Assembly: GCA_025336685.1 (NCBI GenBank)
Contig: GCA_025336685.1_4717.1
Strand: one strand, 5' to 3'
DNA: 64,000 bases
From: Escherichia coli
GTDB lineage: Bacteria; Pseudomonadota; Gammaproteobacteria; Enterobacterales; Enterobacteriaceae
Shown: piece by piece, positions 8,861-58,358 of the stretch
Layout: each line of letters starts with the position of its first letter
Position numbering within the stretch: position 1 is the first letter of the stretch
Notes under the pieces: model-generated
What the model was told of the DNA's origin: nothing
What the model saw: only the letters and a program-made list of their open reading frames with translations
The model's database searches: none
Position numbers and translations under genes: made by a program

Positions 8861-11419
8861 TTACTGCTCTTCACGTTCCAACAGATACTCGGAAGCGGTA
8901 ATACCGTTTACCGTACGTACCGCTTTCAGACGAGTATCGTCACTCAGAATCACGGTAACAGACTGCAGACCTTTTACTTTGGTCTCGAAGGTCTTGAATA
9001 CCTGATCCAGCATACGAGCAATGCTTGGGTTGGTTGCAGCCGATGCGTGAGTGTAACCGTTCTGGTTCAGCTTCAGAATCTTGGCGTTGGTTGGTACACG
9101 AAGAACAACATGCGGACGCATTGCGAACACACTGTGGTTAAACCAGTAAGCATCGTTACTATCTTCGTCAGTGACGATGTCTGGATTAACACGCATGTCT
9201 TCGGTAGCCGCACCCGCCAAACGACGTTCGATTTCGTCAGCATCCAGAGAGCCGTCCTTCTCCAGTTCTGCACGATACTCACTCATGGCAACCAGATGAC
9301 GTTCACGATTCGCTGCAGATTTTTCGTGAGCGGCTTTCAGGTAGTCATGCATGTTGTACAGTTCTGCCATGGAAAGACGAATGTTCCACTGACCTTCGCC
9401 GTCACGATTGCAGTAGAGACACTTCAGCATGTTGACCCAGGTGTAGTAGCAATTGGAGAACTCATCTTCAATGAACTTCTGATCCATTTTAAGATCGTGA
9501 ATCAGCCAACCGGACAGTTCTCCGATATCATCAACGAAGCTAGAAATGGTGGTTTCAGAGAAGTTCTTCGGTACGATACGTTTGATCAGCTTGTTAACGT
9601 CTTTGGTCATGCTATCATTCAGGAAATGCCAGATACGCAGAGGAATGACATCACGATACTGTTGCATGATCTGACGATAAGCTTTGATATCGTCGCTACG
9701 ACCTTTATCAATAGACAACGCGTCCAGGAATTCATGGATAGCATCCAGCTCTTTGTCGGTATAGGTTCCCAGATAGGAATTGACCGTGGCAAGGAATGCT
9801 AATGCGTCGTTTTGGTTGACGTCGGTGTTGGTCTGCTGAATGATCGCTACTGCAGCTTTGGTTTCAGCATCCTCAACGCTTGACGCTGCGATTGCGTCGG
9901 TAACAGTAAACAGTTTCATTTCGCGCTGTTCGCCGACAACGATCGGTTCGCGTTGAACCGGTTTGTTAAGACTAACGCGAACAACTTCTGCTTGCGCGAT
10001 ACGATCCAGTTTTACCATTTCCTGCTCCGCCATACGACGAGCGGTCGGATCTGATTCAAGTTCGATGTATTCCACTTCTTCCTCCGTGAGGGATGTAATG
10101 TCAACAATGGTTTCATGAAGAATTCCGTTTTCGTCGATACGTGCTCGACGAGCGAAGTGTCTGAAGTCATACAACGTTGGCCAGCGACAATTAGGCGCAT
10201 AGTCTTTGGCCTTCAGACGCATCTGCATAAATTCTTCATGTTGAACAACACGACCGTAACGCTTAGCATCTTCGGTCGCATCAATTGGATTAACGGTCTT
10301 TGTTACCGTAGCAGAACGAGCCGTACGAATGGGTTCCGGTTTAGTCTGCACTGGTTCAGGTTGAACGGATTTCTGTTGTCCAGCCTTAACATGCCATTCG
10401 GGTTCTTCGTACCGTTCAGCAAATTGCTCGGCTGCTGCAAAGATATCATTGATACCACCAATATCTCCTTCTGGATTCGTCGAATATATCCGTGGTTGCG
10501 GTGCCTCGTAACGCGGCGCTGAGGTAGCAGATGCGTCGTTAACGACAGGATCGTCATCGCCAACATCATACAAACGGTTGAACGCACAATCCTTCGAATC
10601 GATGTACGATGGAGTTTGTGGTTGGATAACCGTCGGTCGAGGCTGTGCGCCGTATCCCGGCATTGTTGGAGCCATACCACGCATAACTGCTGGGTTAGGT
10701 TGGTATTGTGGTTGTGGGTAGGTTCCGCCATACGTGGGATATGCAGGCTGTTGCGGTTGACCGTACCCACCACCAACCATCGCATTTGCTTGCGGTCCAC
10801 GGTAAGTCATCCCCAGTTGCATCACCTGTTGCTTCAGACCGCGGGACTTCTGCGCTATTTGTGCTAGACTCCCACTTTTATTTAGCTGCGTGTACTTATT
10901 CGCGGCTTCCGGGTTAATGCGCGATAATTCAATCGCACGATAATACTCCGGGTATTGATTGGCTTCAAAGAGCCACGTTACAAGGTGATACAGCGCAACT
11001 GTGCTCACAGCAGCAGAGACGATCTGGTCGTTGGACGCATTCTGCGGCATCGGGTTGATGTAAGAGAATACGTTCCAGCAACAGTCTTCAACAAGCGATT
11101 CCATCATCATGTCGTTATTGGTGTAACGTGAGACGAACTCGGTTTGTATTTTATCCTGTTGGGCGAAGTCTTTCAGGACATTGAAGACAGCTTGACGGAT
11201 TTTGACGATCGTCGCTTCTTGGGTGATGAAGTTATAGTTCTGCTGATATGATGGTTGCTGGTACTGTGGTGGTTGATAGGTGTTATTCGGGTATGCGCTG
11301 TACTGCGGTTGCTGGTACTGTTGTTGGCGAACCTGTTCAGCCGCATAATTAATCGTACTCGCATAAGGGTTTTCGTTGTAGCCCATTTGCTGATACATGT
11401 TGTTACTGCCATTATACAT
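8861..11419 (-). CDS. large hypothetical protein with Q/Y/P/G-rich low-complexity regions (852 aa)
   Basis: ATG at 11419; N-terminal 60 aa and an internal segment are QQPQY/GYGQPQ-type low complexity. Confidence 0.85.
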   Translation of the reverse strand: MYNGSNNMYQQMGYNENPYASTINYAAEQVRQQQYQQPQYSAYPNNTYQPPQYQQPSYQQNYNFITQEATIVKIRQAVFNVLKDFAQQDKIQTEFVSRYTNNDMMMESLVEDCCWNVFSYINPMPQNASNDQIVSAAVSTVALYHLVTWLFEANQYPEYYRAIELSRINPEAANKYTQLNKSGSLAQIAQKSRGLKQQVMQLGMTYRGPQANAMVGGGYGQPQQPAYPTYGGTYPQPQYQPNPAVMRGMAPTMPGYGAQPRPTVIQPQTPSYIDSKDCAFNRLYDVGDDDPVVNDASATSAPRYEAPQPRIYSTNPEGDIGGINDIFAAAEQFAERYEEPEWHVKAGQQKSVQPEPVQTKPEPIRTARSATVTKTVNPIDATEDAKRYGRVVQHEEFMQMRLKAKDYAPNCRWPTLYDFRHFARRARIDENGILHETIVDITSLTEEEVEYIELESDPTARRMAEQEMVKLDRIAQAEVVRVSLNKPVQREPIVVGEQREMKLFTVTDAIAASSVEDAETKAAVAIIQQTNTDVNQNDALAFLATVNSYLGTYTDKELDAIHEFLDALSIDKGRSDDIKAYRQIMQQYRDVIPLRIWHFLNDSMTKDVNKLIKRIVPKNFSETTISSFVDDIGELSGWLIHDLKMDQKFIEDEFSNCYYTWVNMLKCLYCNRDGEGQWNIRLSMAELYNMHDYLKAAHEKSAANRERHLVAMSEYRAELEKDGSLDADEIERRLAGAATEDMRVNPDIVTDEDSNDAYWFNHSVFAMRPHVVLRVPTNAKILKLNQNGYTHASAATNPSIARMLDQVFKTFETKVKGLQSVTVILSDDTRLKAVRTVNGITASEYLLEREEQ

Positions 11420-11454: not shown

Positions 11455-13251
11455 TCAATCGATTATGTCACGATCGTTAATTTCTACAATTTCTTCATCG
11501 AATCGACCGACGTCTTTCTTCAAGCCTGCATTTGTTGCTGCAACGTCATTTGCGATTTGTGGGGTAACGATTAACCGACCACGCTCATCGATAGGTGCGT
11601 ACATACTGAACTTCTGACGTCCGGTTGGTTCGGAGTGTGGAAGATTCAGATAGCTTGCACAGAACGGGATGGAACCACTAACCAAACGACTCTCGTCAGC
11701 CAATGCAGCACCGCCTGCGTTTTGGCTCTGGAGAACAACATGCGTGCTCACTTTGAACAGCATGCAATCACCAGGTGACTGAATCGATGTTGCCACTTTC
11801 TCACGTTTATCACGATTGCTCTGGATATTGAGAATCGCTTCCGTTGCAACTTGATTTCGCAACGCCTTCTGTACATCGCGATTGGTCATCTCTTTACGGT
11901 TGTTCTGTCGTTTACCACGTTCCGTGGTTTTAAGATGGAACCCCAGTTTAAAGATGCTTTTACGCACATCCTCCATGACATATTCCAACACCATCAATTC
12001 CTTACCGAACATCGTCGTGGTATCAACACGACTCATTTCGATAGTAACATTGTCAATCAGATACGCCATAAATTCGTAGAAGTCGTCGCAAGGAATATTT
12101 TCCTGTTTGAACTTCTTCTGTTGAATTTCGTCAACGTAAAGATCGAGACTGTCGATGTGGTGGTTTACATCACGCAACAAACGCGCATCCGCATTGTTGT
12201 TATTAAAGATAATCAAACCGAGTAATGTACGCCAATGGTCTGGCGCATTCGCGAACTCTTCAACCGGATAGTCTTCCGGGAAACGATCGTAATAACGGTC
12301 GATGAGATATAAGAACGCACCGACAAGGCCAAGAACAATACGTTCCGTACCTCCACGTCTTACAGCGATTTGAATATCAGGATGTTTATAACGTACAGCG
12401 TTAGCGCTACGGCTTTTACCGCTTTTGCTGATACTAAAGCCTTTAGGAATAACCCCCATGGTGCGATAGATTACCCATTGGTCGCGCGGAAAATCACGTT
12501 CAGCAAGGTTCCGTCCGGTTACGGCTTCGACACCTGCAAAACGTCGGAAACATTCACCCACCCCATACTTCGCAAAGAGATAATGACCCAGTGTGGTTAC
12601 GCTGGTGTGGTTGATGTTGTCACCGTTCACTTTACTTTGTTTGGTAAGATGATAGATTTGCGACCAGGGTAACGACAGATAATGACGATAATCGATACCC
12701 GTTGGTGTATCATTGCTCAGGAACTGATACGGTGTACGTTTAACCGTGATTTTGTCACGCGGAAGCATGATGAACGCCATGTCTTTCGTGTAACTGATTA
12801 CAGGGTCAGCGAGCACCGCACTGAGAATGAAGTTCGCACCACGTAGACGCATTTTACCACCCTGACCTACTGCGGGCAATAGGAGAGGATGTCGGATAAT
12901 GCAGTAGTCCTTTCCCGGCTCACGGCGGTCACCTGATTCCATCGCACCGTACCAGCGGAATTCTAGCATCACCATAAACACGTCGGAAGGTGCAAGGTCG
13001 AAGGTCAGCTTACCGCTATCCTTCCCTTTGGTTTTCTTTCCTCCGCTTAAGTAGTGGAACTGTTCGCGGGCCATACAACGACGTAGGCCATGATACACCA
13101 GATCCTTAGGTAAACTATCTTTGCTGTTCCGCCAAAGACGATCAACATAGGACTCAACATCTTGCATCTTATCGACGACGATGTTGCGTGCTATCTTCTC
13201 GTTCATCTTCGGTGCAAGCTCAGCGACAGCTTTGCAGAATCTAGGATCCAT
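11455..13251 (-). CDS. hypothetical protein (598 aa)
   Basis: ATG at 13251 with AGGAG SD. Confidence 0.85.
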   Translation of the reverse strand: MDPRFCKAVAELAPKMNEKIARNIVVDKMQDVESYVDRLWRNSKDSLPKDLVYHGLRRCMAREQFHYLSGGKKTKGKDSGKLTFDLAPSDVFMVMLEFRWYGAMESGDRREPGKDYCIIRHPLLLPAVGQGGKMRLRGANFILSAVLADPVISYTKDMAFIMLPRDKITVKRTPYQFLSNDTPTGIDYRHYLSLPWSQIYHLTKQSKVNGDNINHTSVTTLGHYLFAKYGVGECFRRFAGVEAVTGRNLAERDFPRDQWVIYRTMGVIPKGFSISKSGKSRSANAVRYKHPDIQIAVRRGGTERIVLGLVGAFLYLIDRYYDRFPEDYPVEEFANAPDHWRTLLGLIIFNNNNADARLLRDVNHHIDSLDLYVDEIQQKKFKQENIPCDDFYEFMAYLIDNVTIEMSRVDTTTMFGKELMVLEYVMEDVRKSIFKLGFHLKTTERGKRQNNRKEMTNRDVQKALRNQVATEAILNIQSNRDKREKVATSIQSPGDCMLFKVSTHVVLQSQNAGGAALADESRLVSGSIPFCASYLNLPHSEPTGRQKFSMYAPIDERGRLIVTPQIANDVAATNAGLKKDVGRFDEEIVEINDRDIID

Positions 13252-13290: not shown

Positions 13291-14724
13291 TTACTTTTTC
13301 GATGACGCCTTCTCAAGAATCTTGAAAAAGGTCATACCTATACCGACAACAGCCGCGGTTATACTCGCAGCGGCTTTCCAAACATCGACGTTACGTTGAC
13401 GTCGTGCTTCTTCCGCTTCACGTTGTCTTTTTGCCTCTTCATCACGTCGACGTATCTCAGCAGCAAACTCGTCATGCTTACGTTTGGCTTCTTCGTCTCG
13501 ACGACGAAGTTCAGCGACGAATTCTTCATGTTTGCGTTTAGCCTCATCATCACGACGTTTTAAATCAGCTTGATAATCTTCGTGTATTTGTCTACGTAGA
13601 TCATCTTGACGTTTCATTTCGGCTTGGTGTTGTTCCATCCTACGTTTTTGTTCGTCTTTAAGCTGATCGAGTTCGGCTTTATGTTGTTCGTCGCGCAGCT
13701 TTGCGTCGGCGCGATGCGCTTCATGCATCTGTGCGATAACTGCCTTGTGTTCATCCGCCATACGTCGCATTTCAGCCATCACCCCTTTAAGGGTTTCTTC
13801 TGACGACTTACGTTCGTAGCTGCGTTGGTCGAAATCATTTTTGTAGGCTTCTTTTTGGATGGGATCGCGCCAATGCAATGCCGATTCACGCGTCGGAAAA
13901 ACATTGTACTTCCACATCTCTTTTTCCAAATCTTCGACCGGTACGAAGATGGAGTCATTATTCCCGAAGGTAACCAACATACCTGGCGCGCCTGCTCCAT
14001 TCGTTGGTTTTATTTCGAACGCTTTCCCCAGCACGTTAACCCATAGGCTATACGGATTATGAAAGTCGGGTGGCGTCCAGTGGATAGTGAGTTGCGTTCC
14101 GAGAATCCGGAAACCCTCTGTCTTTCCTGTTAAACTACGCGCACATGTTGCGATGTAGGGGTGATCAATCCCTTTCGTAACATGGTCTGCGCTTTTGTAT
14201 TCTCCTTTAACTTTTACGATTGCCACGTTGATTTGCGCGACATAAATAGGTTGATTAAAGTTCAACGTGTTGAGGTCAATTTGACATATCTCGTCCAGCG
14301 TATCGTACCAGTCTTGCTGGTCTAATAGACGCGGTATTTTCTCTGTGTTAACGATGCGACGGATATGCGGTTTCCTTATCGCGTAACCTGTACCATTTTT
14401 AACACGGAGTATATCCCGACGTCTACCCGCGTAGACGAAGTTTCTGAATGCACCATTCGCATTAGATACGTCATGGCTGTCAACTATTACAGGACTACGA
14501 AATTTTGAACGTCGTACGATCCTGAATGTATTACTGTCCTCAACTCTACCAGGAATGTACTGGAACATATTGTCGGAGGTGATAACCAACACGGTATGGC
14601 CGGATTCATTAATACATGCCCACCCTAATTCCAGGTCATACAACGGTTCAGCATAACCGTCAATGCGATATGCGTACCATCCCCACGGTTCGAACGCGGT
14701 ATCACATATTGGCATGGAGGGCAT
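13291..14724 (-). CDS. hypothetical protein with C-terminal charged coiled-coil repeats and a terminal hydrophobic helix (477 aa)
   Basis: ATG at 14724 with GGAGGTGA SD; three RRRDEEAKRKHxEFxAE repeats then WKAAASITAAVVGIGMTFFKIL. Confidence 0.85.
   Translation of the reverse strand: MPSMPICDTAFEPWGWYAYRIDGYAEPLYDLELGWACINESGHTVLVITSDNMFQYIPGRVEDSNTFRIVRRSKFRSPVIVDSHDVSNANGAFRNFVYAGRRRDILRVKNGTGYAIRKPHIRRIVNTEKIPRLLDQQDWYDTLDEICQIDLNTLNFNQPIYVAQINVAIVKVKGEYKSADHVTKGIDHPYIATCARSLTGKTEGFRILGTQLTIHWTPPDFHNPYSLWVNVLGKAFEIKPTNGAGAPGMLVTFGNNDSIFVPVEDLEKEMWKYNVFPTRESALHWRDPIQKEAYKNDFDQRSYERKSSEETLKGVMAEMRRMADEHKAVIAQMHEAHRADAKLRDEQHKAELDQLKDEQKRRMEQHQAEMKRQDDLRRQIHEDYQADLKRRDDEAKRKHEEFVAELRRRDEEAKRKHDEFAAEIRRRDEEAKRQREAEEARRQRNVDVWKAAASITAAVVGIGMTFFKILEKASSKK
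13407..13572 (-). repeat. imperfect tandem DNA repeats (about 45-48 bp unit) encoding the charged peptide repeats of 13291-14724
   Basis: Repeated cgtcgacg...ttcttcatg...gcgttt units visible; coordinates approximate. Confidence 0.4.
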
Positions 14725-14874
14725 CGCTCACCTCCATCAGATTGAAAATTATCATGCATAACGCATTTCCCTTTTCTTGTTCTTATCAAACTGACAGCCG
14801 ACGGTTTCCAGTATCGCCCCCAGCGCGAGAACGACCTTACGTGTTGTCTATGCCTTATTAATCGCAGGCTTCTG

Positions 14875-14894
14875 TCACCTAGGTAATGTAAGCG
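14875..14894 (-). promoter_or_regulatory. conserved motif TCACCTAGGTAATGTAAGCG (minus strand TACATTACCTAGGTGA), putative phage promoter
   Basis: One of 4-5 copies of the GGTAATATAG-type motif; about 150 nt upstream of the 13291-14724 start. Confidence 0.35.
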
Positions 14895-14932
14895 TCAAAT
14901 TTTTTCTATTCGCAACGATAAACGGCATAAAT

Positions 14933-14960
14933 CTCCCCCAACCCTTACGGGCTGAGGGAG
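14933..14960 (-). terminator. imperfect GC-rich hairpin (CTCCC..CCC-TTAC-GGG..GGGAG) flanked by CATA/TATG, downstream of the capsid-candidate gene
   Basis: Inverted repeat read directly; same architecture as the other junction hairpins. Confidence 0.4.
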
Positions 14961-15057
14961 GCTGACTTATGTATCACGGTGCCGGATGAATGTCCGCAAT
15001 GAAACCATCCGCAACGTTGTCGTCAAGAATATCATCCAACGAAGCAGCTACGGTAGT

Positions 15058-17280
15058 TCAGTTAGTCTGAACAGGCAGCTTGATGTTTTCGGTGTAGACC
15101 TTACGCAGGTTCACAACGTTAATCAGACCCAGCAGCGGGCAGTTGTTAACGAAGCGGCAGCGAGGCTGAACCATGGTTTCTTTAGAAACCTGACCGTTAC
15201 GGGTAACCTGAGCAACAGATACCAGTTCCGGTACGTACAGGAACATACCGAAGGTCAGCGGATCCGGAGAACCCTGGATACCACGAGACAGGGTCACGAA
15301 GATCTTATCACGCAGCAGAACGTTCGGGTTATCTACAACCACGAAGTTGAAGCTTACACCAACGGTACGGAAATCACCATCGGTCTGCAGGAACTGCGGG
15401 ATGTAGTTGTCAGTTGCTACCACGCAACGCGGTTTCTCATCAGCGTTGGAAGACAGCAGCTGCAGAGCTGGCTGATAACCAGACTCGGAGTACATGCGAT
15501 ATGCCATCTCACGAATCACGTTCATGATCGCAGCGGACACTTCAGCACGACGTTCTGCAGTGGTGGTGCCCTGAACAGATTTCGCCAGGTCCAGATTGAT
15601 TTCTTCGAACCACGGACGGATCAGGTAACGACCGAAACCTTCGATCTGGATGTCACCGAACTGACGGAAGCGAGAGGTCGCAACCGCTTTCAGTGCATCT
15701 TTGTAGCTGAACAGTTTCTCAACCATCAGGTTGTCGAAACGTGCGTTAGCAGCTTGGATCAGAACGTCCAGGTCAGCAGCGTTTTCTTCCCAATCCAGCG
15801 GACGAGGAATGGAGAACGGAGCCAGCAGGCCGATTGCATAACGCTCTTGCTTCATGTTGAAGTCAAGGTGTTTACCACGTTCACGACGGTTGCTGTTGTT
15901 ACGGCGAATACGCAGTTCGTAACCAACCAGTTTGAAGCTCAGGTCGTCAGCCAGGTCTTTAAATTCTTGGCTCTTACGCGGCTGTTCGATGTTGTCCTGA
16001 TCAACCAGGCGATACAGTTCAGCGTTAGCACCGTTAACACGCAGACCTGCTTTCTCTACGTTGGAAGAACCGTAAACTTCGATAGCCAGCTGAGCAGCAG
16101 ATTTCGCATCGATGATGTCCTGCAGCGCTTCGGCTTTCGCACCTTTAACGTCAACGGTGTTCTCATCAACGAAGATGGAGTGGGTGTCGAACGCCAGGGT
16201 CATTTTGCGGAAGTCGCCTTCCAGGGATTTCTGGAAACCGTTGGTAATCAGACCGGATACGTCGAACGGAACGTAAGAGGTCTTGCTGTGCTTGGCTGAT
16301 TTGATTTCCACCAGGATTTTGGTCAGCGTGATCTGAGCATCCAGCGCATCGGTGTTGTCGCTGTAACCGTTAGCCAGAATGCTATCGTCTTCAGCGATAC
16401 CGATCATGTCGATCAGTTTATCAACAGCCAGGTAAGACGTTTTGTAAGTTACGCCTTTAATCTCGATGTCGCGCGGAGCAACGATAGTTTTGTCAACGAA
16501 GTACTGCGCGTTAGCATCGTCGGCACGATAGATCGGATGCAGATCGGTCACGTCGTTGGACAGAACGTCGTTGTACATGAACGCATCCAGCAGCGGACGA
16601 CGTACCCAATCAGCCGGAGTACCGTCAGCGTTACGACGCAGGTGGTTGAACACCAGCGGACGACGGAAAGATACGTCGTAACCGATCTGGTTCGGAGCCA
16701 GAACGATGGTGTTGTACAGTTCGTTACCCATGCGGCTCAGACGAGAAGCCTTCACGTTGAACACAACGGAGTACGGCATCATGTCACGCAGTTCTTTCTG
16801 GTCGTAGGACAGCTGAACCAGTTCTTCAGATTCGCAACCGCAGGAATCAGCAGCCATCATGACGAAGTTAGAGCTGTCAACTTCACGGCCAGACGGAGTG
16901 GTGCTGATGTTCATGGAACGTGCTTGTTTAGCATATTCTACCGGGTTGCCATGAGCCAGCATGATCAGTGCTGCTGCACGAGCCTGCTGTGCGTTCATGG
17001 TGAACAGCTGTTCTTCAATACGCTGCTTCTCTTCCGGAGTGGTGGTTTCGAAGCCCAGCATGGACAGAACCGGTTCTTCTGCTTTACGGATGTCGCTGCT
17101 GAAGCTCTTAACATCCATATCGTTAACCAGTTTGTCCATGGATTTGAAATCAACCTTAGAAGCAGATTCCATAGACAGGAAGGTGTTCTCCAGACCTTTG
17201 TCTGCTGGTTTGCTACCATTAGCGGTCAGGAACTGGCGAGTGGCCGCGACCTGTTGGCTAAGAAGGGTTTTATCATTCAT
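15058..17280 (-). CDS. candidate major capsid protein (740 aa)
   Basis: ATG with AAGGA SD; codon usage sharply optimised (CTG, CGT, GGT, ACC, AAC) relative to neighbours; size fits jumbo-phage capsid proteins; N-terminus has SME|S-type motifs; function by inference only. Confidence 0.85.
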   Translation of the reverse strand: MNDKTLLSQQVAATRQFLTANGSKPADKGLENTFLSMESASKVDFKSMDKLVNDMDVKSFSSDIRKAEEPVLSMLGFETTTPEEKQRIEEQLFTMNAQQARAAALIMLAHGNPVEYAKQARSMNISTTPSGREVDSSNFVMMAADSCGCESEELVQLSYDQKELRDMMPYSVVFNVKASRLSRMGNELYNTIVLAPNQIGYDVSFRRPLVFNHLRRNADGTPADWVRRPLLDAFMYNDVLSNDVTDLHPIYRADDANAQYFVDKTIVAPRDIEIKGVTYKTSYLAVDKLIDMIGIAEDDSILANGYSDNTDALDAQITLTKILVEIKSAKHSKTSYVPFDVSGLITNGFQKSLEGDFRKMTLAFDTHSIFVDENTVDVKGAKAEALQDIIDAKSAAQLAIEVYGSSNVEKAGLRVNGANAELYRLVDQDNIEQPRKSQEFKDLADDLSFKLVGYELRIRRNNSNRRERGKHLDFNMKQERYAIGLLAPFSIPRPLDWEENAADLDVLIQAANARFDNLMVEKLFSYKDALKAVATSRFRQFGDIQIEGFGRYLIRPWFEEINLDLAKSVQGTTTAERRAEVSAAIMNVIREMAYRMYSESGYQPALQLLSSNADEKPRCVVATDNYIPQFLQTDGDFRTVGVSFNFVVVDNPNVLLRDKIFVTLSRGIQGSPDPLTFGMFLYVPELVSVAQVTRNGQVSKETMVQPRCRFVNNCPLLGLINVVNLRKVYTENIKLPVQTN

Positions 17281-17834: not shown

Positions 17835-18051
17835 GCAGGTTGTTAAGATGGACCGCAGGGTTCGCTTGTTCGTGTTCTTTCGTGATGAAGAAAGGCACGT
17901 TCTGGGCCGCGAAATAAAAACCTACATCATTGGGCGATAGTATGCCGAAAAGACTTTTAGGATCCAATAACACCTGTAAGTCATCACGCGCATTTCGAAT
18001 AATCGCGTGTTCTACCCAATTCGGAACGACGAGATATCGGAGTTCCTTCAT
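17806..18051 (-). CDS. hypothetical protein, N-terminal ORF of a possibly frameshifted gene (81 aa)
   Basis: ATG start; 3' end overlaps the 5' end of 17430-17834. Confidence 0.45.
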   Translation of the reverse strand: MKELRYLVVPNWVEHAIIRNARDDLQVLLDPKSLFGILSPNDVGFYFAAQNVPFFITKEHEQANPAVHLNNLLGGMFAYPL

Positions 18052-18090
18052 TATGATTACCTCTTTGCAAGTATCGAAAGGATTGAGTCG

Positions 18091-19701
18091 ATGGACCCAA
18101 AACAGATAGCCATTAAGATTATTACGTTACTGTTTCGTAACGCACAATTGAACCATCCCGATCCCAGTACGATCGACCATGTTAAATCCGTCTTAGATAA
18201 AGTCGAACCCCCGAAAAACCATCTCGCTACGGACATAGATAGAGAGGTTTTCAACAACCTGATGAATACCATTCATTGGATGTTGGAACAACCGTTATCG
18301 GAACCTTTCGACAAACAACAGTTGTTACAAAGGATACGTTTAGATTGCCTTGAGCAAAGCAATCTTTACGAGATTCTTGCCGACGGACTGTACGATATCG
18401 AAGACGATGCTCATATCAGTAAGGTCTGTTCGCTTTATTACAACGAATTGCGTAACCTGATTACCCGCCGTCGTGTTTTCGAAACCTTTAGAAACACGTA
18501 CATGGATATCAGTAACGGGCGACTTGGGGATAAAGAATTTTTCGACGCGATGGCGAATTTGAAATTATCGCTTGACAGTATCGAAATGGATACCGAAAAT
18601 CCCGAAGAGATGTCGTGTATGGTTGATGGCTTTATTGCTGACAGCGAAGACGATATCGAGAAAGTCGAACGTATGTTCGTTAAAGCGATGGAACGTAACA
18701 GTCCTGAAGGTGGGTTTGTAACCGGCTGGCAAGGTTTTAATAAAATGTTGGGGTCGGTCGGCGTTTTACGTCGCGGTACCTTAGGACTGATTGGTGCGAT
18801 GCAGCACCGAAATAAATCGGGTGTGTTGTTAAAACTGTTCACGCATCTGGCATTGTACAACAAACCTCATTTCTTTTTTCCGGAGCGAGCAAAGAAAGCG
18901 TTACTGATTCATTTGTCAACAGAAAACGAAGTAGAAGAAAACACGCTTCAGATATACAAGAACATGCGAGAACAGGAAACAGGCGAATATGTCGATATTC
19001 GTAAGATTGACCCTCGCGAGGCATCACGTTATGTGTTGAAGGTGTTCAACGATGCGGGTTTCTCTGTTTGTATGCGTCGTGTTGACGGGATGAGTTACAA
19101 ACAACTCGCTAATCTCATCGACCATTTCGAACGCATGGGTTATGAGGTCATGGCGTTGTTCATTGACTATCTGAAAATGTTCTCATCGGAAGGGCTGGAT
19201 AGAAATGGACCGACCGGCGCATGGCTCCAAGAACTCTTCAACAAAGTTCGTAACCTCTGCAGTGTTAAACGTATTTTAGGTATGACCGTACACCAGCTGT
19301 CATCCGACGCGAAGATGCGTGCACGTGACGGTAACGATGAAGAGTTTGTTGACCAAGTCGCAGGCTTAAGTTACTGGGATGGTTGTAAAGGGATTGACCG
19401 TGAGATCGATCTTGAAGTGATTGTTGATATCGTTAAGGAGCCAGGTAAACGTCAAAGCTGGCAGGTCTTTGCGTTAGGGAAAGACCGTCAACCGGATAAC
19501 GGTTCAACGAAACCTGAGGATAAACATTTCACAATGCCATTCCAAACCATCGGGATGCTTCCTGATGATTACGGTAAGAAAGCAGTATACTGTCGTAAGG
19601 TTGGTGGACAACCAGTCTCCGAGGGAGGTAAAGGTCCGTGGAACAAGTTCGATGAAAACGCAGCACCAAGTAATGAATTACAATTTGATTTAGAATTTTA
19701 A
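18091..19701 (+). CDS. DnaB-like helicase homologue with atypical P-loop (about 536 aa)
   Basis: ATG at 18091 with AGGA upstream; P-loop-like GAMQHRNKSG, Walker-B-like LFIDYLKMF, H3-like GMTVHQLS; assignment by motif only. Confidence 0.75.
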   Translation: MDPKQIAIKIITLLFRNAQLNHPDPSTIDHVKSVLDKVEPPKNHLATDIDREVFNNLMNTIHWMLEQPLSEPFDKQQLLQRIRLDCLEQSNLYEILADGLYDIEDDAHISKVCSLYYNELRNLITRRRVFETFRNTYMDISNGRLGDKEFFDAMANLKLSLDSIEMDTENPEEMSCMVDGFIADSEDDIEKVERMFVKAMERNSPEGGFVTGWQGFNKMLGSVGVLRRGTLGLIGAMQHRNKSGVLLKLFTHLALYNKPHFFFPERAKKALLIHLSTENEVEENTLQIYKNMREQETGEYVDIRKIDPREASRYVLKVFNDAGFSVCMRRVDGMSYKQLANLIDHFERMGYEVMALFIDYLKMFSSEGLDRNGPTGAWLQELFNKVRNLCSVKRILGMTVHQLSSDAKMRARDGNDEEFVDQVAGLSYWDGCKGIDREIDLEVIVDIVKEPGKRQSWQVFALGKDRQPDNGSTKPEDKHFTMPFQTIGMLPDDYGKKAVYCRKVGGQPVSEGGKGPWNKFDENAAPSNELQFDLEF

Positions 19702-23032: not shown

Positions 23033-23054
23033 TCACCTAGGTAATATAGTCGCG
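23033..23054 (-). promoter_or_regulatory. conserved motif TCACCTAGGTAATATAGTCGCG (minus strand CTATATTACCTAGGTGA), putative phage early-type promoter
   Basis: Exact TATATTAC on the minus strand about 60 nt upstream of the 22204-22977 start; motif recurs at 14875, 58090, 58255. Confidence 0.4.
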
Positions 23055-23091
23055 AAATAAACTGGAGTAATACGCTTAAGACAGTATAGAA

Positions 23092-23123
23092 CCCTCTCCC
23101 TTCCCTTACGGGTTGGGAGAGGG
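23092..23123 (-). terminator. junction hairpin CCCTCTCCC-TT-CCC-TTAC-GGG-TTG-GGAGAGGG
   Basis: Perfect inverted repeat immediately after the stop of 23128-24495; inverse orientation of the 37018 copy. Confidence 0.5.
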
Positions 23124-58201: not shown

Positions 58202-58274
58202 TCACCTAGGTTGCGTTTTGTTAATAACAAAACGCATCGCCTTAGTGACCTATGTCACTAAGGTAATATAGCCG
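58202..58274 (-). promoter_or_regulatory. composite regulatory region: TCACCTAGGT half-motif, perfect 25-bp palindrome, 10-bp hairpin, then full GTCACTAAGGTAATATAGCCG motif
   Basis: Palindrome TGCGTTTTGTTAA-T-AACAAAACGCA at 58212-58236 and inverted repeat CCTTAGTGAC/GTCACTAAGG at 58240-58263, both read directly; TATATTAC on the minus strand. Confidence 0.4.
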
Positions 58275-58314
58275 TGAAATAGACTGCGTTAACAAGAAAT
58301 AAAACAGCATAAAA

Positions 58315-58358
58315 CCTCCTCCCCCATCCTACAAGAGGACGGTGGGAAGAGGGAGAGA
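58315..58358 (-). terminator. imperfect GC-rich junction hairpin after the stop of 58361-58762
   Basis: CCTCCTCCCCC...GGTGGGAAGAGGGAG with mismatches; flanked by CATAAAA; weakest family member. Confidence 0.3.

What the first reader, a model, noticed from the sequence alone, without database searches (positions are those of the whole stretch)
13291..14724. Charged-repeat coiled-coil protein ending in a single hydrophobic helix
The C-terminal 90 aa consist of three RRRDEEAKRKH(D/E)EF(V/A)AE(L/I) repeats followed by WKAAASITAAVVGIGMTFFKIL and a short basic tail, resembling a tail-anchored membrane protein. It sits directly downstream of the capsid-candidate gene, behind its own hairpin and promoter-like motif.
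Basis: seen in the sequence. Interest (0 to 1): 0.45.

Follow-up and report, generated by a model that had tools for sequence, protein, structure and literature searches.

The report
Tail-anchored core protein of nucleus-forming phages
This gene encodes the counterpart of Goslar gp40 / phiKZ gp122, an uncharacterised protein found only in phages that build a 'nucleus' inside bacteria: a globular head on a roughly 20 nm rigid charged helix ending in a membrane-anchor-like helix, a layout conserved across the family and apparently not described before.

Summary
The ORF is real (13291..14724, minus strand, 477 aa) and 98% identical to hypothetical protein gp40 of Escherichia phage Goslar. It is the Goslar-clade ortholog of Chimalliviridae core gene cg35 (phiKZ gp122, RAY gp001). 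That gene is restricted to nucleus-forming phages, has no assigned function, and scores as fitness-conferring in phiKZ TnSeq.

The described C-terminus is present, with corrections. There are two full 18-residue repeats plus a half copy, and these form the best-preserved end of a roughly 136-residue helix with 18-residue periodicity. The helix is not a heptad coiled coil. Its charges are patterned like a single alpha-helix (SAH) domain, and its hydrophobic residues form a straight stripe with 3.6-residue spacing. Close relatives differ by 11- and 18-residue indels, which are whole helical turns.

The terminal helix is the only hydrophobic segment, scores borderline-to-positive as transmembrane, and recurs at the extreme C-terminus in 19 family members checked. 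It is degenerate in the phiKZ clade.

The upstream hairpin is the phiKZ-type terminator of the capsid gene. The promoter-like box matches the phiKZ early-promoter consensus and heads a conserved cg35–RNA polymerase subunit unit.

Best reading: an early-made, tail-anchored tether with a ruler-like stalk. Membrane insertion and binding partner are untested.

The parts
13291..14724 (-). CDS, 477 aa. Ortholog of Goslar gp40 (Goslar_00040, QBO63833.1) and of Chimalliviridae core gene cg35 (phiKZ gp122, RAY gp001).
   Evidence: ORF list and sequence. tblastn gives 98.3% identity to Goslar over the full length. Annotation. Prichard 2023 Table S3.
13825..14724 (-). N-terminal family-specific domain (about aa 1-300), beta-rich, with no match to any known fold or Pfam family.
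   Evidence: hhalign against the phiKZ gp122 group gives 96.3% probability, E=1.6e-9. Against the Xoo-sp14/PCH45/RSF1 group it gives 97.7%, E=1.9e-12. No Pfam match. PHROGs 7727, 15024 and 7286, all of unknown function. AF2 pLDDT is only 52-62. No PDB match by sequence or fold. BFVD hits are all uncharacterised chimallivirus proteins.
13384..13791 (-). Charged helical stalk, aa 312-447 (about 136 residues, about 20 nm if fully helical). It has SAH-like charge patterning and a straight hydrophobic stripe with 3.6-residue spacing.
   Evidence: AF2 predicts one continuous helix over 312-475, with pLDDT 75-92 across about 320-420. 54% of residues are D/E/K/R. There are 78 stabilising and 9 destabilising i+3/i+4 charge pairs, z=7.7. 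Periodicity is 3.6 (p<0.0002), not 3.5 (p=0.27). Indels of 11 and 18 aa occur here in close relatives.
13399..13560 (-).
   Evidence: Register printout. Amino-acid identity 72% and 56%, DNA identity 56-67%. Tandem Repeats Finder negative.
13315..13380 (-). C-terminal hydrophobic helix WKAAASITAAVVGIGMTFFKIL (aa 449-470). It contains 17 uncharged residues bracketed by Lys and is rich in small residues (59% G/A/S/T).
   Evidence: Kyte-Doolittle and Hessa scores. Eisenberg <H>=0.69, hydrophobic moment 0.19. Conserved in position and composition across the 19 family members checked. Invariant among Goslar-like variants.
13294..13314 (-). Short basic tail EKASSKK (aa 471-477). The stop codon is at 13291-13293.
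   Evidence: Translation. Family members have tails of 0-10 residues that are neutral to basic.
14728..14735 (-). Shine-Dalgarno sequence GGAGGTGA, 4 nt before the ATG.
   Evidence: Sequence and coordinates.
14875..14910 (-). Early-promoter-like box AATAGAAAAAATTTGACGCTTACATTACCTAGGTGA.
   Evidence: It resembles the phiKZ consensus early promoter tatattaaaaaaaatttaagatgtatattacaaatgtg (TnSeq preprint Table S1). The equivalent box lies upstream of cg35, or of the small gene preceding it, in most of the 16 intergenic regions compared. TAYATTACCTAGGTGA recurs behind terminators at 23033 and 58255 in the window. No sigma-70-type promoter was found.
14922..14964 (-). Terminator of the capsid gene: a 12-bp hairpin followed by TTTATGCCGT.
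   Evidence: Fold energy -24.7 kcal/mol. It fits the phiKZ terminator motif BCCYCCCCHWWDGGGRRGGBYTTATKYYGT reported by Putzeys 2024. The same element follows the capsid gene in most of the other phages compared.
15058..17280 (-). Upstream neighbour: major capsid protein (Goslar gp41).
   Evidence: PF25620, E=1.6e-217. phrog_3231.
11455..13251 (-). Downstream neighbour, 39 nt after the stop codon: non-virion RNA polymerase beta-type subunit (Goslar gp39, phiKZ gp123, cg36). Probably co-transcribed.
   Evidence: phrog_2943 'polymerase', E=5.5e-120. Table S3. The order capsid gene, cg35, polymerase subunit holds in all loci examined. No terminator lies in the 39-nt gap.

Best explanation
The gene is the Goslar-clade ortholog of Chimalliviridae core gene cg35.

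Proposed mechanism:
1. It is transcribed early, from a phiKZ-type early (virion RNA polymerase) promoter placed just after the capsid gene's terminator. It is transcribed together with the non-virion RNA polymerase subunit gene that follows.
2. The protein has no signal peptide. It is inserted post-translationally by its single C-terminal Gly/Ala-rich hydrophobic helix into a lipid bilayer. That bilayer would be the host inner membrane and/or the early-infection (EPI) vesicle derived from it. The N-terminus stays in the cytoplasm.
3. A stalk of about 136 residues, stabilised by intrahelical salt bridges, acts as a stiff spacer of about 20 nm. This is 18-25 nm in natural variants and an estimated 7-11 nm in other genera.
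4. The family-specific beta-rich head at the end of the stalk engages phage assemblies that form next to membranes. The only available lead is the ChmA/ChmB shell and capsid-docking network. The protein would therefore be a membrane-to-phage-assembly tether or ruler.

Shown here: the ORF, its orthology, synteny, architecture, charge and periodicity statistics, conservation of the terminal helix, the length polymorphism, and the promoter and terminator motifs.

Inferred: membrane insertion, topology, a monomeric rigid stalk, early timing in Goslar, and the binding partner.
For: Orthology and family restriction:
- 98% identity to Goslar gp40.
- cg35 = Goslar gp040 / phiKZ gp122 / RAY gp001, marked as unique to chimallin-encoding phages.
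- hhalign probabilities of 96-98%.
- HMMER against 1.84 billion representative proteins finds only two distant relatives, both in capsid-cg35-polymerase synteny.
- All 28 significant BFVD hits are chimallivirus proteins.

Anchor:
- It is the only hydrophobic segment.
- Eisenberg <H> is 0.69-0.77 with a moment of 0.19-0.25 in the Goslar clade.
- Most non-Pseudomonas genera checked have 12-17 uncharged residues at the extreme C-terminus, preceded by (W/L)K, with composition conserved rather than sequence.

Stalk:
- AF2 predicts a continuous helix.
- SAH-like charge pattern, z=7.7.
- Indels of 11, 18 and 18 aa keep the 3.6-residue phase in all variants (R 0.51-0.61).

Early unit:
- The promoter box matches the phiKZ early consensus, and the phiKZ gp121-122 upstream region matches it almost exactly.
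- The gap to the polymerase subunit is 39 nt here, with no terminator, and short in every locus examined.

Importance:
- 19 of the 20 chimallivirus-specific core genes, the only exception being orf93/162/163, lack or nearly lack transposon insertions in phiKZ.
- phiKZ122 knockdown gives a weak plaque and ChmA phenotype and a strong change in phage transcription at 30 min.

Partner lead:
- The PhiPA3 ortholog YP_009217217.1 is in the ChmA-miniTurboID list but not in the part of the RecA (nuclear lumen) list where it would fall (the end of that table was cut between the two file parts read).
- It is recovered in ChmA-GFP (1 peptide), GFP-ChmB (1 peptide) and ChmB-GFP (5 peptides, 24% coverage) pulldowns.

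Not a virion protein, as far as checked:
- It is absent from the Goslar virion paper and its held supplements.
- 201phi2-1 gp202 is not flagged as a virion protein.
Against: - Hydrophobicity is only borderline for a monomeric transmembrane helix: 17 uncharged residues and a Hessa sum of +1.35 kcal/mol.
- The C-terminal tail is net basic, which is unfavourable for translocation across an energised inner membrane.
- In phiKZ, PhiPA3 and 201phi2-1 the terminal helix contains D and K residues and is amphipathic rather than transmembrane-grade (<H> 0.51-0.59). Either the anchor is not essential to the family's function or it works peripherally there.
- The proteomic link to ChmA and ChmB is weak. 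The TurboID list holds about 95 proteins, and two of the three pulldowns rest on a single peptide.
- The TnSeq and antisense phenotypes could be polar effects on the essential polymerase subunit gene just downstream.
- No localisation data exist for any ortholog (Table S3 omits it).
- The rotating phage nucleus cannot be permanently tied to the envelope, so any tether must be transient or act on other cargo.
Confidence: 0.45

Rival explanations
1. The protein is not a membrane protein. The C-terminal hydrophobic helix is a protein-protein docking or self-association element, for example packing into the ChmA lattice, into ChmB, or into a small-xxx-small helix bundle. The protein would then be a soluble, shell-associated adaptor whose head projects from the nuclear shell into the cytoplasm. 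Its function would be tied to the RNA polymerase genes it is transcribed with.
For: - The phiKZ-clade orthologs have charged residues inside the terminal helix.
- The helix is rich in small residues, with an S454/A458/G461/T465 face, as expected for tight helix-helix packing (and direct reading of the sequence).
- The ortholog is found in ChmA proximity labelling and in ChmA and ChmB pulldowns.
- Adjacency to the nvRNAP beta subunit gene is conserved, and knockdown of phiKZ122 and phiKZ124 changes transcription.
- The straight 3.6-residue hydrophobic stripe could be a contact surface.
Against: - Outside the phiKZ clade the segment excludes charges over 12-17 residues in most genera checked and conserves composition rather than sequence. 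That is the signature of a lipid-facing helix, not of a specific protein interface.
- It is bracketed by Lys/Arg and preceded by an interfacial Trp-Lys, as membrane anchors are.
- Such a helix exposed on a soluble protein would be prone to aggregation.
Confidence: 0.3
2. It is a membrane-anchored nucleator or chaperone of procapsid assembly. This is the role that membrane-associated gp40 and gp20 play in T4 (from general knowledge). The head would bind portal or capsid protein at the inner membrane and be left behind when the procapsid leaves for the nucleus.
For: - The gene always sits next to the major capsid protein gene.
- Chimallivirus capsids are reported to assemble on the inner membrane (reviews read).
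- The ChmB-GFP pulldown that gives the best recovery of the ortholog is dominated by capsid, portal and tail proteins.
- The protein is absent from virions as far as checked.
Against: - A terminator separates it from the late capsid gene, and it sits behind an early-type promoter in a unit with an early RNA polymerase subunit.
- Its knockdown alters transcription, which is not expected of a head-assembly factor unless the effect is polar.
- The family is absent from related non-nucleus jumbo phages, although membrane-initiated head assembly is not specific to chimalliviruses.
Confidence: 0.15
3. It is a lysis or envelope-disrupting protein (holin-like, antiholin-like or spanin-like) that uses its hydrophobic helix to act on the inner membrane.
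For: It has a single Gly/Ala-rich hydrophobic helix with basic flanks next to a long helical region, which superficially resembles i-spanins and some holins.
Against: - The anchor is C-terminal with a cytoplasmic N-terminus, whereas i-spanins are N-terminally anchored with a periplasmic coiled coil (general knowledge).
- The protein has a 300-residue globular domain.
- No lysin gene is adjacent. The gene sits in an early-type promoter unit with an RNA polymerase subunit.
- It belongs to the chimallivirus-specific core set.
Confidence: 0.04

Closest known systems
Chimalliviridae core gene cg35: phiKZ gp122, PhiPA3 gene-138 product (YP_009217217.1), 201phi2-1 gp202, RAY gp001 (Prichard et al. 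2023). PHROGs 7727, 15024 and 7286.
   Same: Homologous N-terminal domain (hhalign, 96-98% probability). Same position between the major capsid gene and the nvRNAP beta subunit gene. Same three-part layout of head, charged helix and terminal hydrophobic helix. Same early-promoter-like box upstream.
   Different: The Goslar clade has a much longer stalk (117-164 residues, against an estimated 45-75 or fewer elsewhere) with an 18-residue repeat. The phiKZ clade has a degenerate, amphipathic terminal helix and an extra small gene (gp121) in the slot. No member has an assigned function.
Tail-anchored membrane tethers with a helical stalk: eukaryotic VAP-A/B and golgins, and E. coli ElaB/YqjD/YgaM (recalled from general knowledge, not tested)
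   Same: [quoted passage not shown] The head is held at a set distance from the bilayer.
   Different: No detectable sequence or fold similarity. VAP MSP-domain hits in Foldseek had E of 2-4 and are noise. The protein is phage-encoded. The stalk is SAH-like rather than a dimeric coiled coil. Membrane insertion is unproven.
ER/K single alpha-helix (SAH) domains, e.g. in myosin VI and X and in caldesmon
   Different: It carries about 17% hydrophobic residues aligned in a straight stripe of 3.6-residue spacing, and several His residues. It could therefore also pair with a partner or a surface. Its monomeric state is untested.
T4 gp40/gp20 membrane-initiated prohead assembly
   Same: Possible functional analogy: a membrane-bound, non-virion factor close to head genes, in a phage whose capsids start on the inner membrane.
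   Different: No homology was tested or is expected. The gene here sits behind an early-type promoter and is specific to nucleus-forming phages.
Phage i-spanins and class II/III holins
   Same: One hydrophobic helix plus a charged helical region.
   Different: The topology is opposite (C-terminal anchor, cytoplasmic bulk). There is a large globular domain, no lysis-cassette context, and an early promoter.

Membership tests
Chimalliviridae core gene cg35 (phiKZ gp122 / Goslar gp40 family) | Sequence homology of the N-terminal domain to family members | tested here: met
   98.3% identity to Goslar gp40. hhalign gives 96.3% (E=1.6e-9) against the phiKZ group and 97.7% (E=1.9e-12) against the Xoo-sp14/PCH45/RSF1 group. 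phrog_7727, E=2.3e-5.
Chimalliviridae core gene cg35 (phiKZ gp122 / Goslar gp40 family) | Position between the major capsid protein gene and the nvRNAP beta subunit gene (cg34-cg35-cg36) | tested here: met
   Window gene order. The same order is found in 2 metagenomic contig types and 13 phage genomes. Table S3.
Chimalliviridae core gene cg35 (phiKZ gp122 / Goslar gp40 family) | Restricted to chimallin-encoding (nucleus-forming) phages | tested here: met
   Marked with an asterisk in Prichard Table S3. Significant BFVD hits are all chimallivirus or uncultured myovirus proteins. HMMER against 1.84 billion representatives finds no relatives outside this synteny.
Tail-anchored membrane protein | A single hydrophobic helix within about 30 residues of the C-terminus, with no signal peptide or other transmembrane segment | tested here: met
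   The best Kyte-Doolittle windows all fall in 446-470, and the maximum elsewhere is 0.85. The tail after the helix is 7-10 residues.
Tail-anchored membrane protein | Hydrophobicity and length sufficient to span a bilayer | tested here: inconclusive
   Kyte-Doolittle 1.76-1.82 and Eisenberg <H> 0.69 with moment 0.19 favour a transmembrane helix. Only 17 uncharged residues and a Hessa sum of +1.35 kcal/mol make it borderline. TMHMM and DeepTMHMM were not available.
Tail-anchored membrane protein | Demonstrated integral membrane association with the N-terminus in the cytoplasm | not testable with these tools
   This needs fractionation or imaging. No localisation is published for any ortholog.
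Canonical (heptad) coiled coil | 3.5-residue periodicity of hydrophobic residues, with a/d core positions mostly L/I/V/M | tested here: not met
   R=0.22, p=0.27 at period 3.5, against R=0.57, p<0.0002 at period 3.6. Best-register a/d occupancy, counting Ala as hydrophobic, is only 0.38-0.62 across 320-440. Only 17% of residues are hydrophobic.
Single alpha-helix (ER/K, SAH) domain | High charge content with opposite charges at i/i+3 and i/i+4 far above random expectation | tested here: met
   54% D/E/K/R overall and 68% in 389-447. 78 stabilising against 9 destabilising pairs, z=7.7. AF2 predicts a continuous high-confidence helix.
Single alpha-helix (ER/K, SAH) domain | Monomeric, with no hydrophobic seam | tested here: inconclusive
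   A narrow in-phase hydrophobic stripe is present. The oligomeric state cannot be tested here.
Holin / spanin lysis proteins | Small transmembrane protein or N-terminally anchored periplasmic coiled coil, encoded in a lysis cassette | tested here: not met
   The protein is 477 aa with a C-terminal anchor and a 300-aa cytoplasmic domain. Its neighbours are the capsid, RNA polymerase subunit and helicase genes.

The most novel reading that the evidence does not exclude
cg35 is the missing lipid-to-protein coupling factor of nucleus-forming phages. It would be an early-made, tail-anchored tether that inserts into the EPI vesicle or inner membrane. Through its head, it would recruit or position the nascent ChmA/ChmB shell, or membrane-born procapsids. 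Its salt-bridged helix would work as a molecular ruler whose length is tuned in whole helical turns (11 and 18 residues) between strains.
Probability: 0.15. Interest if true: 0.8.

Novelty: new variant of a known kind. Interest (0 to 1): 0.5.

Why it matters
Only about twenty genes are both universal in and specific to nucleus-forming phages. [quoted passage not shown]

Two steps of this life cycle involve lipid membranes and have no known phage-encoded membrane factor. One is the hand-over of the genome from the lipid EPI vesicle to the protein shell. The other is the start of capsid assembly on the inner membrane.

A family-specific core protein with a conserved C-terminal anchor and a ruler-like stalk is an obvious candidate. 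I found no paper that describes this architecture. The natural stalk-length variants (460, 478, 489 and 507 aa) supply a ready-made 'ruler' experiment.

If the anchor proves not to be a membrane anchor, the protein is still a conserved shell-proximal factor encoded with the phage RNA polymerase, and worth localising.

Tried and rejected
- Pfam, NCBI-style family and PDB sequence searches of the protein and of a 15-member N-domain alignment found nothing.
- Two profile searches of the 5.8-billion-protein index added few members. Charged-repeat words swamped the candidate list in one. The other returned mostly close relatives.
- Tandem Repeats Finder found no DNA-level repeat, so recent slippage is rejected as the origin of the 18-residue units.
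- The sigma-70 promoter scan found none upstream. Its two terminator-like hits lie on the opposite strand inside the CDS and are irrelevant.
- The first motif search, with GCTTACATTACCT, was not above chance. The refined degenerate motif was informative.
- Rfam and folding of the 5' leader showed nothing.
- Literature searches for Goslar gp40, for tail-anchored or transmembrane proteins in chimalliviruses, and for 201phi2-1 gp202 found no characterisation.
- SPN3US 'gp122' and PhiPA3 'gp122' in the papers found are unrelated proteins.
- The phiKZ EPI-vesicle interactome paper does not mention gp122.
- A lysis role was considered and rejected on topology and context.
Full report
**What is there**

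The window is a close relative of Escherichia phage vB_EcoM_Goslar, a nucleus-forming jumbo phage: 97% nucleotide identity over 7 kb. The flagged ORF (13291..14724, minus strand, 477 aa) starts 4 nt after a GGAGGTGA ribosome-binding site. It is 98.3% identical to Goslar_00040, annotated 'hypothetical protein'.

Its neighbours on the same strand are:
- upstream, the major capsid protein (PF25620, E=1.6e-217);
- downstream, a phiKZ gp123-type non-virion RNA polymerase subunit (phrog_2943);
- then an 852-aa gp124-like protein.

**Checking the observation**

The C-terminus is as described, but there are two full 18-residue units and one half unit rather than three. Amino-acid identity is 72% and 56%, DNA identity is 56-67%, and there is no DNA tandem repeat. 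Printed in lines of 18, the periodicity extends back to about residue 317.

The terminal segment WKAAASITAAVVGIGMTFFKIL is the only hydrophobic stretch in the protein. Its Kyte-Doolittle 19-mer score is 1.76, against a maximum of 0.85 elsewhere. Eisenberg mean hydrophobicity is 0.69 with a low moment of 0.19, which is transmembrane-type. A position-independent Hessa sum is +1.35 kcal/mol, which is borderline. Among about 50 crude genes in the window it ranks second for C-terminal hydrophobicity.

**Family**

The protein has no Pfam family. An exhaustive HMMER search of 1.84 billion representative proteins found only two distant relatives of 406 and 413 aa. Both lie on metagenomic contigs with the same order of helicase, capsid gene, this gene and polymerase subunit. 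Both end in a hydrophobic helix.

In 13 other chimallivirus genomes, the gene in the same slot is 311-406 aa long. These genomes are phiKZ, 201phi2-1, PhiPA3, Noxifer, Xoo-sp14, PCH45, RSF1, pVa-21, SEGD1 (SPN3US type), PhiEaH1, 2050HW and Ea35-70.

Profile-profile comparison confirms homology of the N-terminal domains. The probability is 96.3% (E=1.6e-9) against the phiKZ group and 97.7% (E=1.9e-12) against the others. This agrees with Prichard et al. 2023. Their Table S3 lists cg35 = Goslar gp040 / phiKZ gp122 / RAY gp001 as 'hypothetical' and marks it as unique to chimallin-encoding phages. Foldseek of the (poor) model against BFVD returned 28 significant hits, all uncharacterised proteins of chimalliviruses or uncultured myoviruses.

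**The anchor is a family trait**

In all 19 sequences examined, the protein ends in a helix at the extreme C-terminus. In most genera outside the phiKZ clade the helix has these features:
- 12-17 uncharged residues (9-11 in 2050HW and Ea35-70), rich in Gly, Ala, Ser and Thr;
- a preceding (W/L)K, often as ...RKDSSE(F/W)(W/L)K;
- a following tail of 0-10 residues that is neutral to basic.

Composition is conserved rather than sequence, which is what a lipid-facing helix looks like. In phiKZ, PhiPA3 and 201phi2-1 the segment contains Asp and Lys and is amphipathic (<H> 0.51-0.59). This weakens the claim that a true transmembrane span is required everywhere.

**The stalk**

AlphaFold2 predicts one continuous helix from 312 to 475, with pLDDT 75-92 over about 320-420.

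The stalk is not a heptad coiled coil:
- Hydrophobic residues make up 17% of the stalk. They are out of phase at 3.5 residues (R=0.22, p=0.27) but in phase at 3.6 (R=0.57, p<0.0002).
- Best-register a/d occupancy is low.
- Charges are arranged for intrahelical salt bridges, with 78 stabilising and 9 destabilising i+3/i+4 pairs, z=7.7 against shuffles. This is the hallmark of ER/K single alpha-helix domains.

Close relatives are 460, 478, 489 and 507 aa long. The differences are one 11-residue and two 18-residue indels, all inside the stalk. Head and anchor stay nearly invariant. Eleven and eighteen residues are three and five helical turns, and every variant keeps the 3.6-residue phase (R 0.51-0.61). 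As a helix, the stalk would span 18-25 nm.

**Transcription context**

The hairpin upstream (14933..14961, -24.7 kcal/mol) followed by TTTATGCCGT fits the conserved phiKZ terminator motif published by Putzeys et al. 2024. It ends the capsid gene.

About 35 nt further lies AAAAAATTTGACGCTTACATTACCTAGGTGA. This resembles the phiKZ 'consensus early promoter' tatattaaaaaaaatttaagatgtatattacaaatgtg given in the phiKZ TnSeq preprint. The phiKZ region upstream of gp121-gp122 matches that consensus almost exactly. A terminator-promoter module of this kind precedes cg35, or the small gene before it, in most of the 16 intergenic regions compared.

In the window the core TAYATTACCTAGGTGA recurs twice more, each time behind a terminator hairpin. 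No sigma-70 promoter is present. Only 39 nt and no terminator separate the gene from the polymerase subunit gene.

I infer early transcription by the virion RNA polymerase, as one unit with gp39 and probably gp38.

**Functional data from orthologs (literature)**

- phiKZ TnSeq: 19 of the 20 chimallivirus-specific core genes have no insertions or only 1-3. The sole exception is orf93/162/163, so orf122 is included. Polar effects on orf123 are possible, and the authors document such cases.
- Antisense knockdown of phiKZ122 gave weak plaque and ChmA effects. It was listed among the few knockdowns with strong effects on phage transcription at 30 min. A polar effect on gp123 is again a caveat.
- In PhiPA3 the ortholog YP_009217217.1 is the gene-138 product, which the tools print masked as 'xxxxx'.
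  - It appears in the ChmA-miniTurboID list but not in the part of the RecA-miniTurboID list where it would fall (the end of that table was cut between the two file parts read).
  - It appears in ChmA-GFP (1 peptide), GFP-ChmB (1 peptide) and ChmB-GFP (5 peptides, 24% coverage) pulldowns.
  - The authors note it as conserved and of unknown role, and it was not localised.
- It is not mentioned in the Goslar virion structure paper or its held supplements.

**Interpretation**

The best-supported picture is an early-made, non-virion protein with three parts. A hydrophobic C-terminal helix anchors it. A stiff, salt-bridged stalk of adjustable length acts as a spacer. A family-specific head does the binding.

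I favour a lipid anchor, making it a tail-anchored protein in the inner membrane or the EPI vesicle, because of the charge-free, compositionally conserved helix with basic flanks. I rate this at about 0.45 because:
- the hydrophobicity is borderline;
- the phiKZ clade is degenerate;
- nothing has been localised.

The main rival (0.3) is that the helix docks into a protein, such as the shell or ChmB, or into a self-bundle. What the head binds is unknown. The shell and capsid-docking network is the only experimental lead, and it is weak. Procapsid nucleation at the membrane (0.15) and EPI-vesicle-to-nucleus hand-over are the two specific processes a membrane tether could serve. A lysis role is unlikely on topology and context.

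**Novelty**

The gene and its core-genome status are already catalogued, so this is not a new gene. What I could not find in the literature is the conserved tail-anchor-like helix, the SAH-like stalk and its turn-quantised length polymorphism. It is best described as a new, phage-specific variant of the known 'tail-anchored tether with a helical spacer' design, with membrane insertion still to be shown.

Noticed in passing
window 8861..11419 (-): The 852-aa gp124-like protein, third gene of the same unit, has prion-like or FG-like low-complexity regions. Residues 1-64 are 70% Q/Y/P/N/G and residues 200-300 are 50%. Knockdown of its phiKZ counterpart (phiKZ124) was also listed as strongly altering phage transcription.
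   Followed up: partly
window 14875..14964 (-), about 23033..23120 (-), about 58255..58345 (-): A recurrent intergenic module consists of a GC-rich terminator hairpin, TTATRCYGT, about 35 nt of spacer, and TAYATTACCTAGGTGA. The terminator part (YTTATKYYGT) and the TATATTAC-type promoter core are recognisable across several very divergent chimallivirus genera, including phiKZ, PhiPA3, Noxifer and Xoo-sp14.
   Followed up: partly
window 13384..13791 (-), and proteins P0001, P0003, P0011: Stalk length differs among strains that are 89-98% identical in the N-terminal domain, by indels of exactly 11 and 18 residues (3 and 5 helical turns). The three C-terminal repeat units and the anchor stay constant.
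   Followed up: yes
proteins P0009, P0012-P0014, P0023, P0025: Goslar-like and SPN3US-like copies of this protein are deposited within Salmonella enterica and E. coli (including O157) genome assemblies. This is consistent with reports of virulent jumbo-phage sequences inside bacterial isolate assemblies.
   Followed up: no
loci L006 (7952-8404), L008 (8405-8923), L010 (7288-7821), L014 (6711-7157): Pseudomonas chimalliviruses carry an extra small gene (phiKZ gp121, 201phi2-1 gp201, PhiPA3 gp137, Noxifer gp123) between the capsid gene and cg35, overlapping the cg35 start in three of the four. The same clade has the degenerate C-terminal helix. PhiPA3 gp137 is also in the ChmA-miniTurboID list.
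   Followed up: no
tool outputs: The text 'gp138' is printed as 'xxxxx' in every tool output: paper text, locus tags and my own script output. I identified the protein through its accession, YP_009217217.1.
   Followed up: yes
window 18007..19701 (+): A divergent DnaB-like helicase (PF20307, E=2.5e-120) is transcribed divergently from the capsid block, as in all the other chimalliviruses examined. This is ordinary for the family.
   Followed up: no
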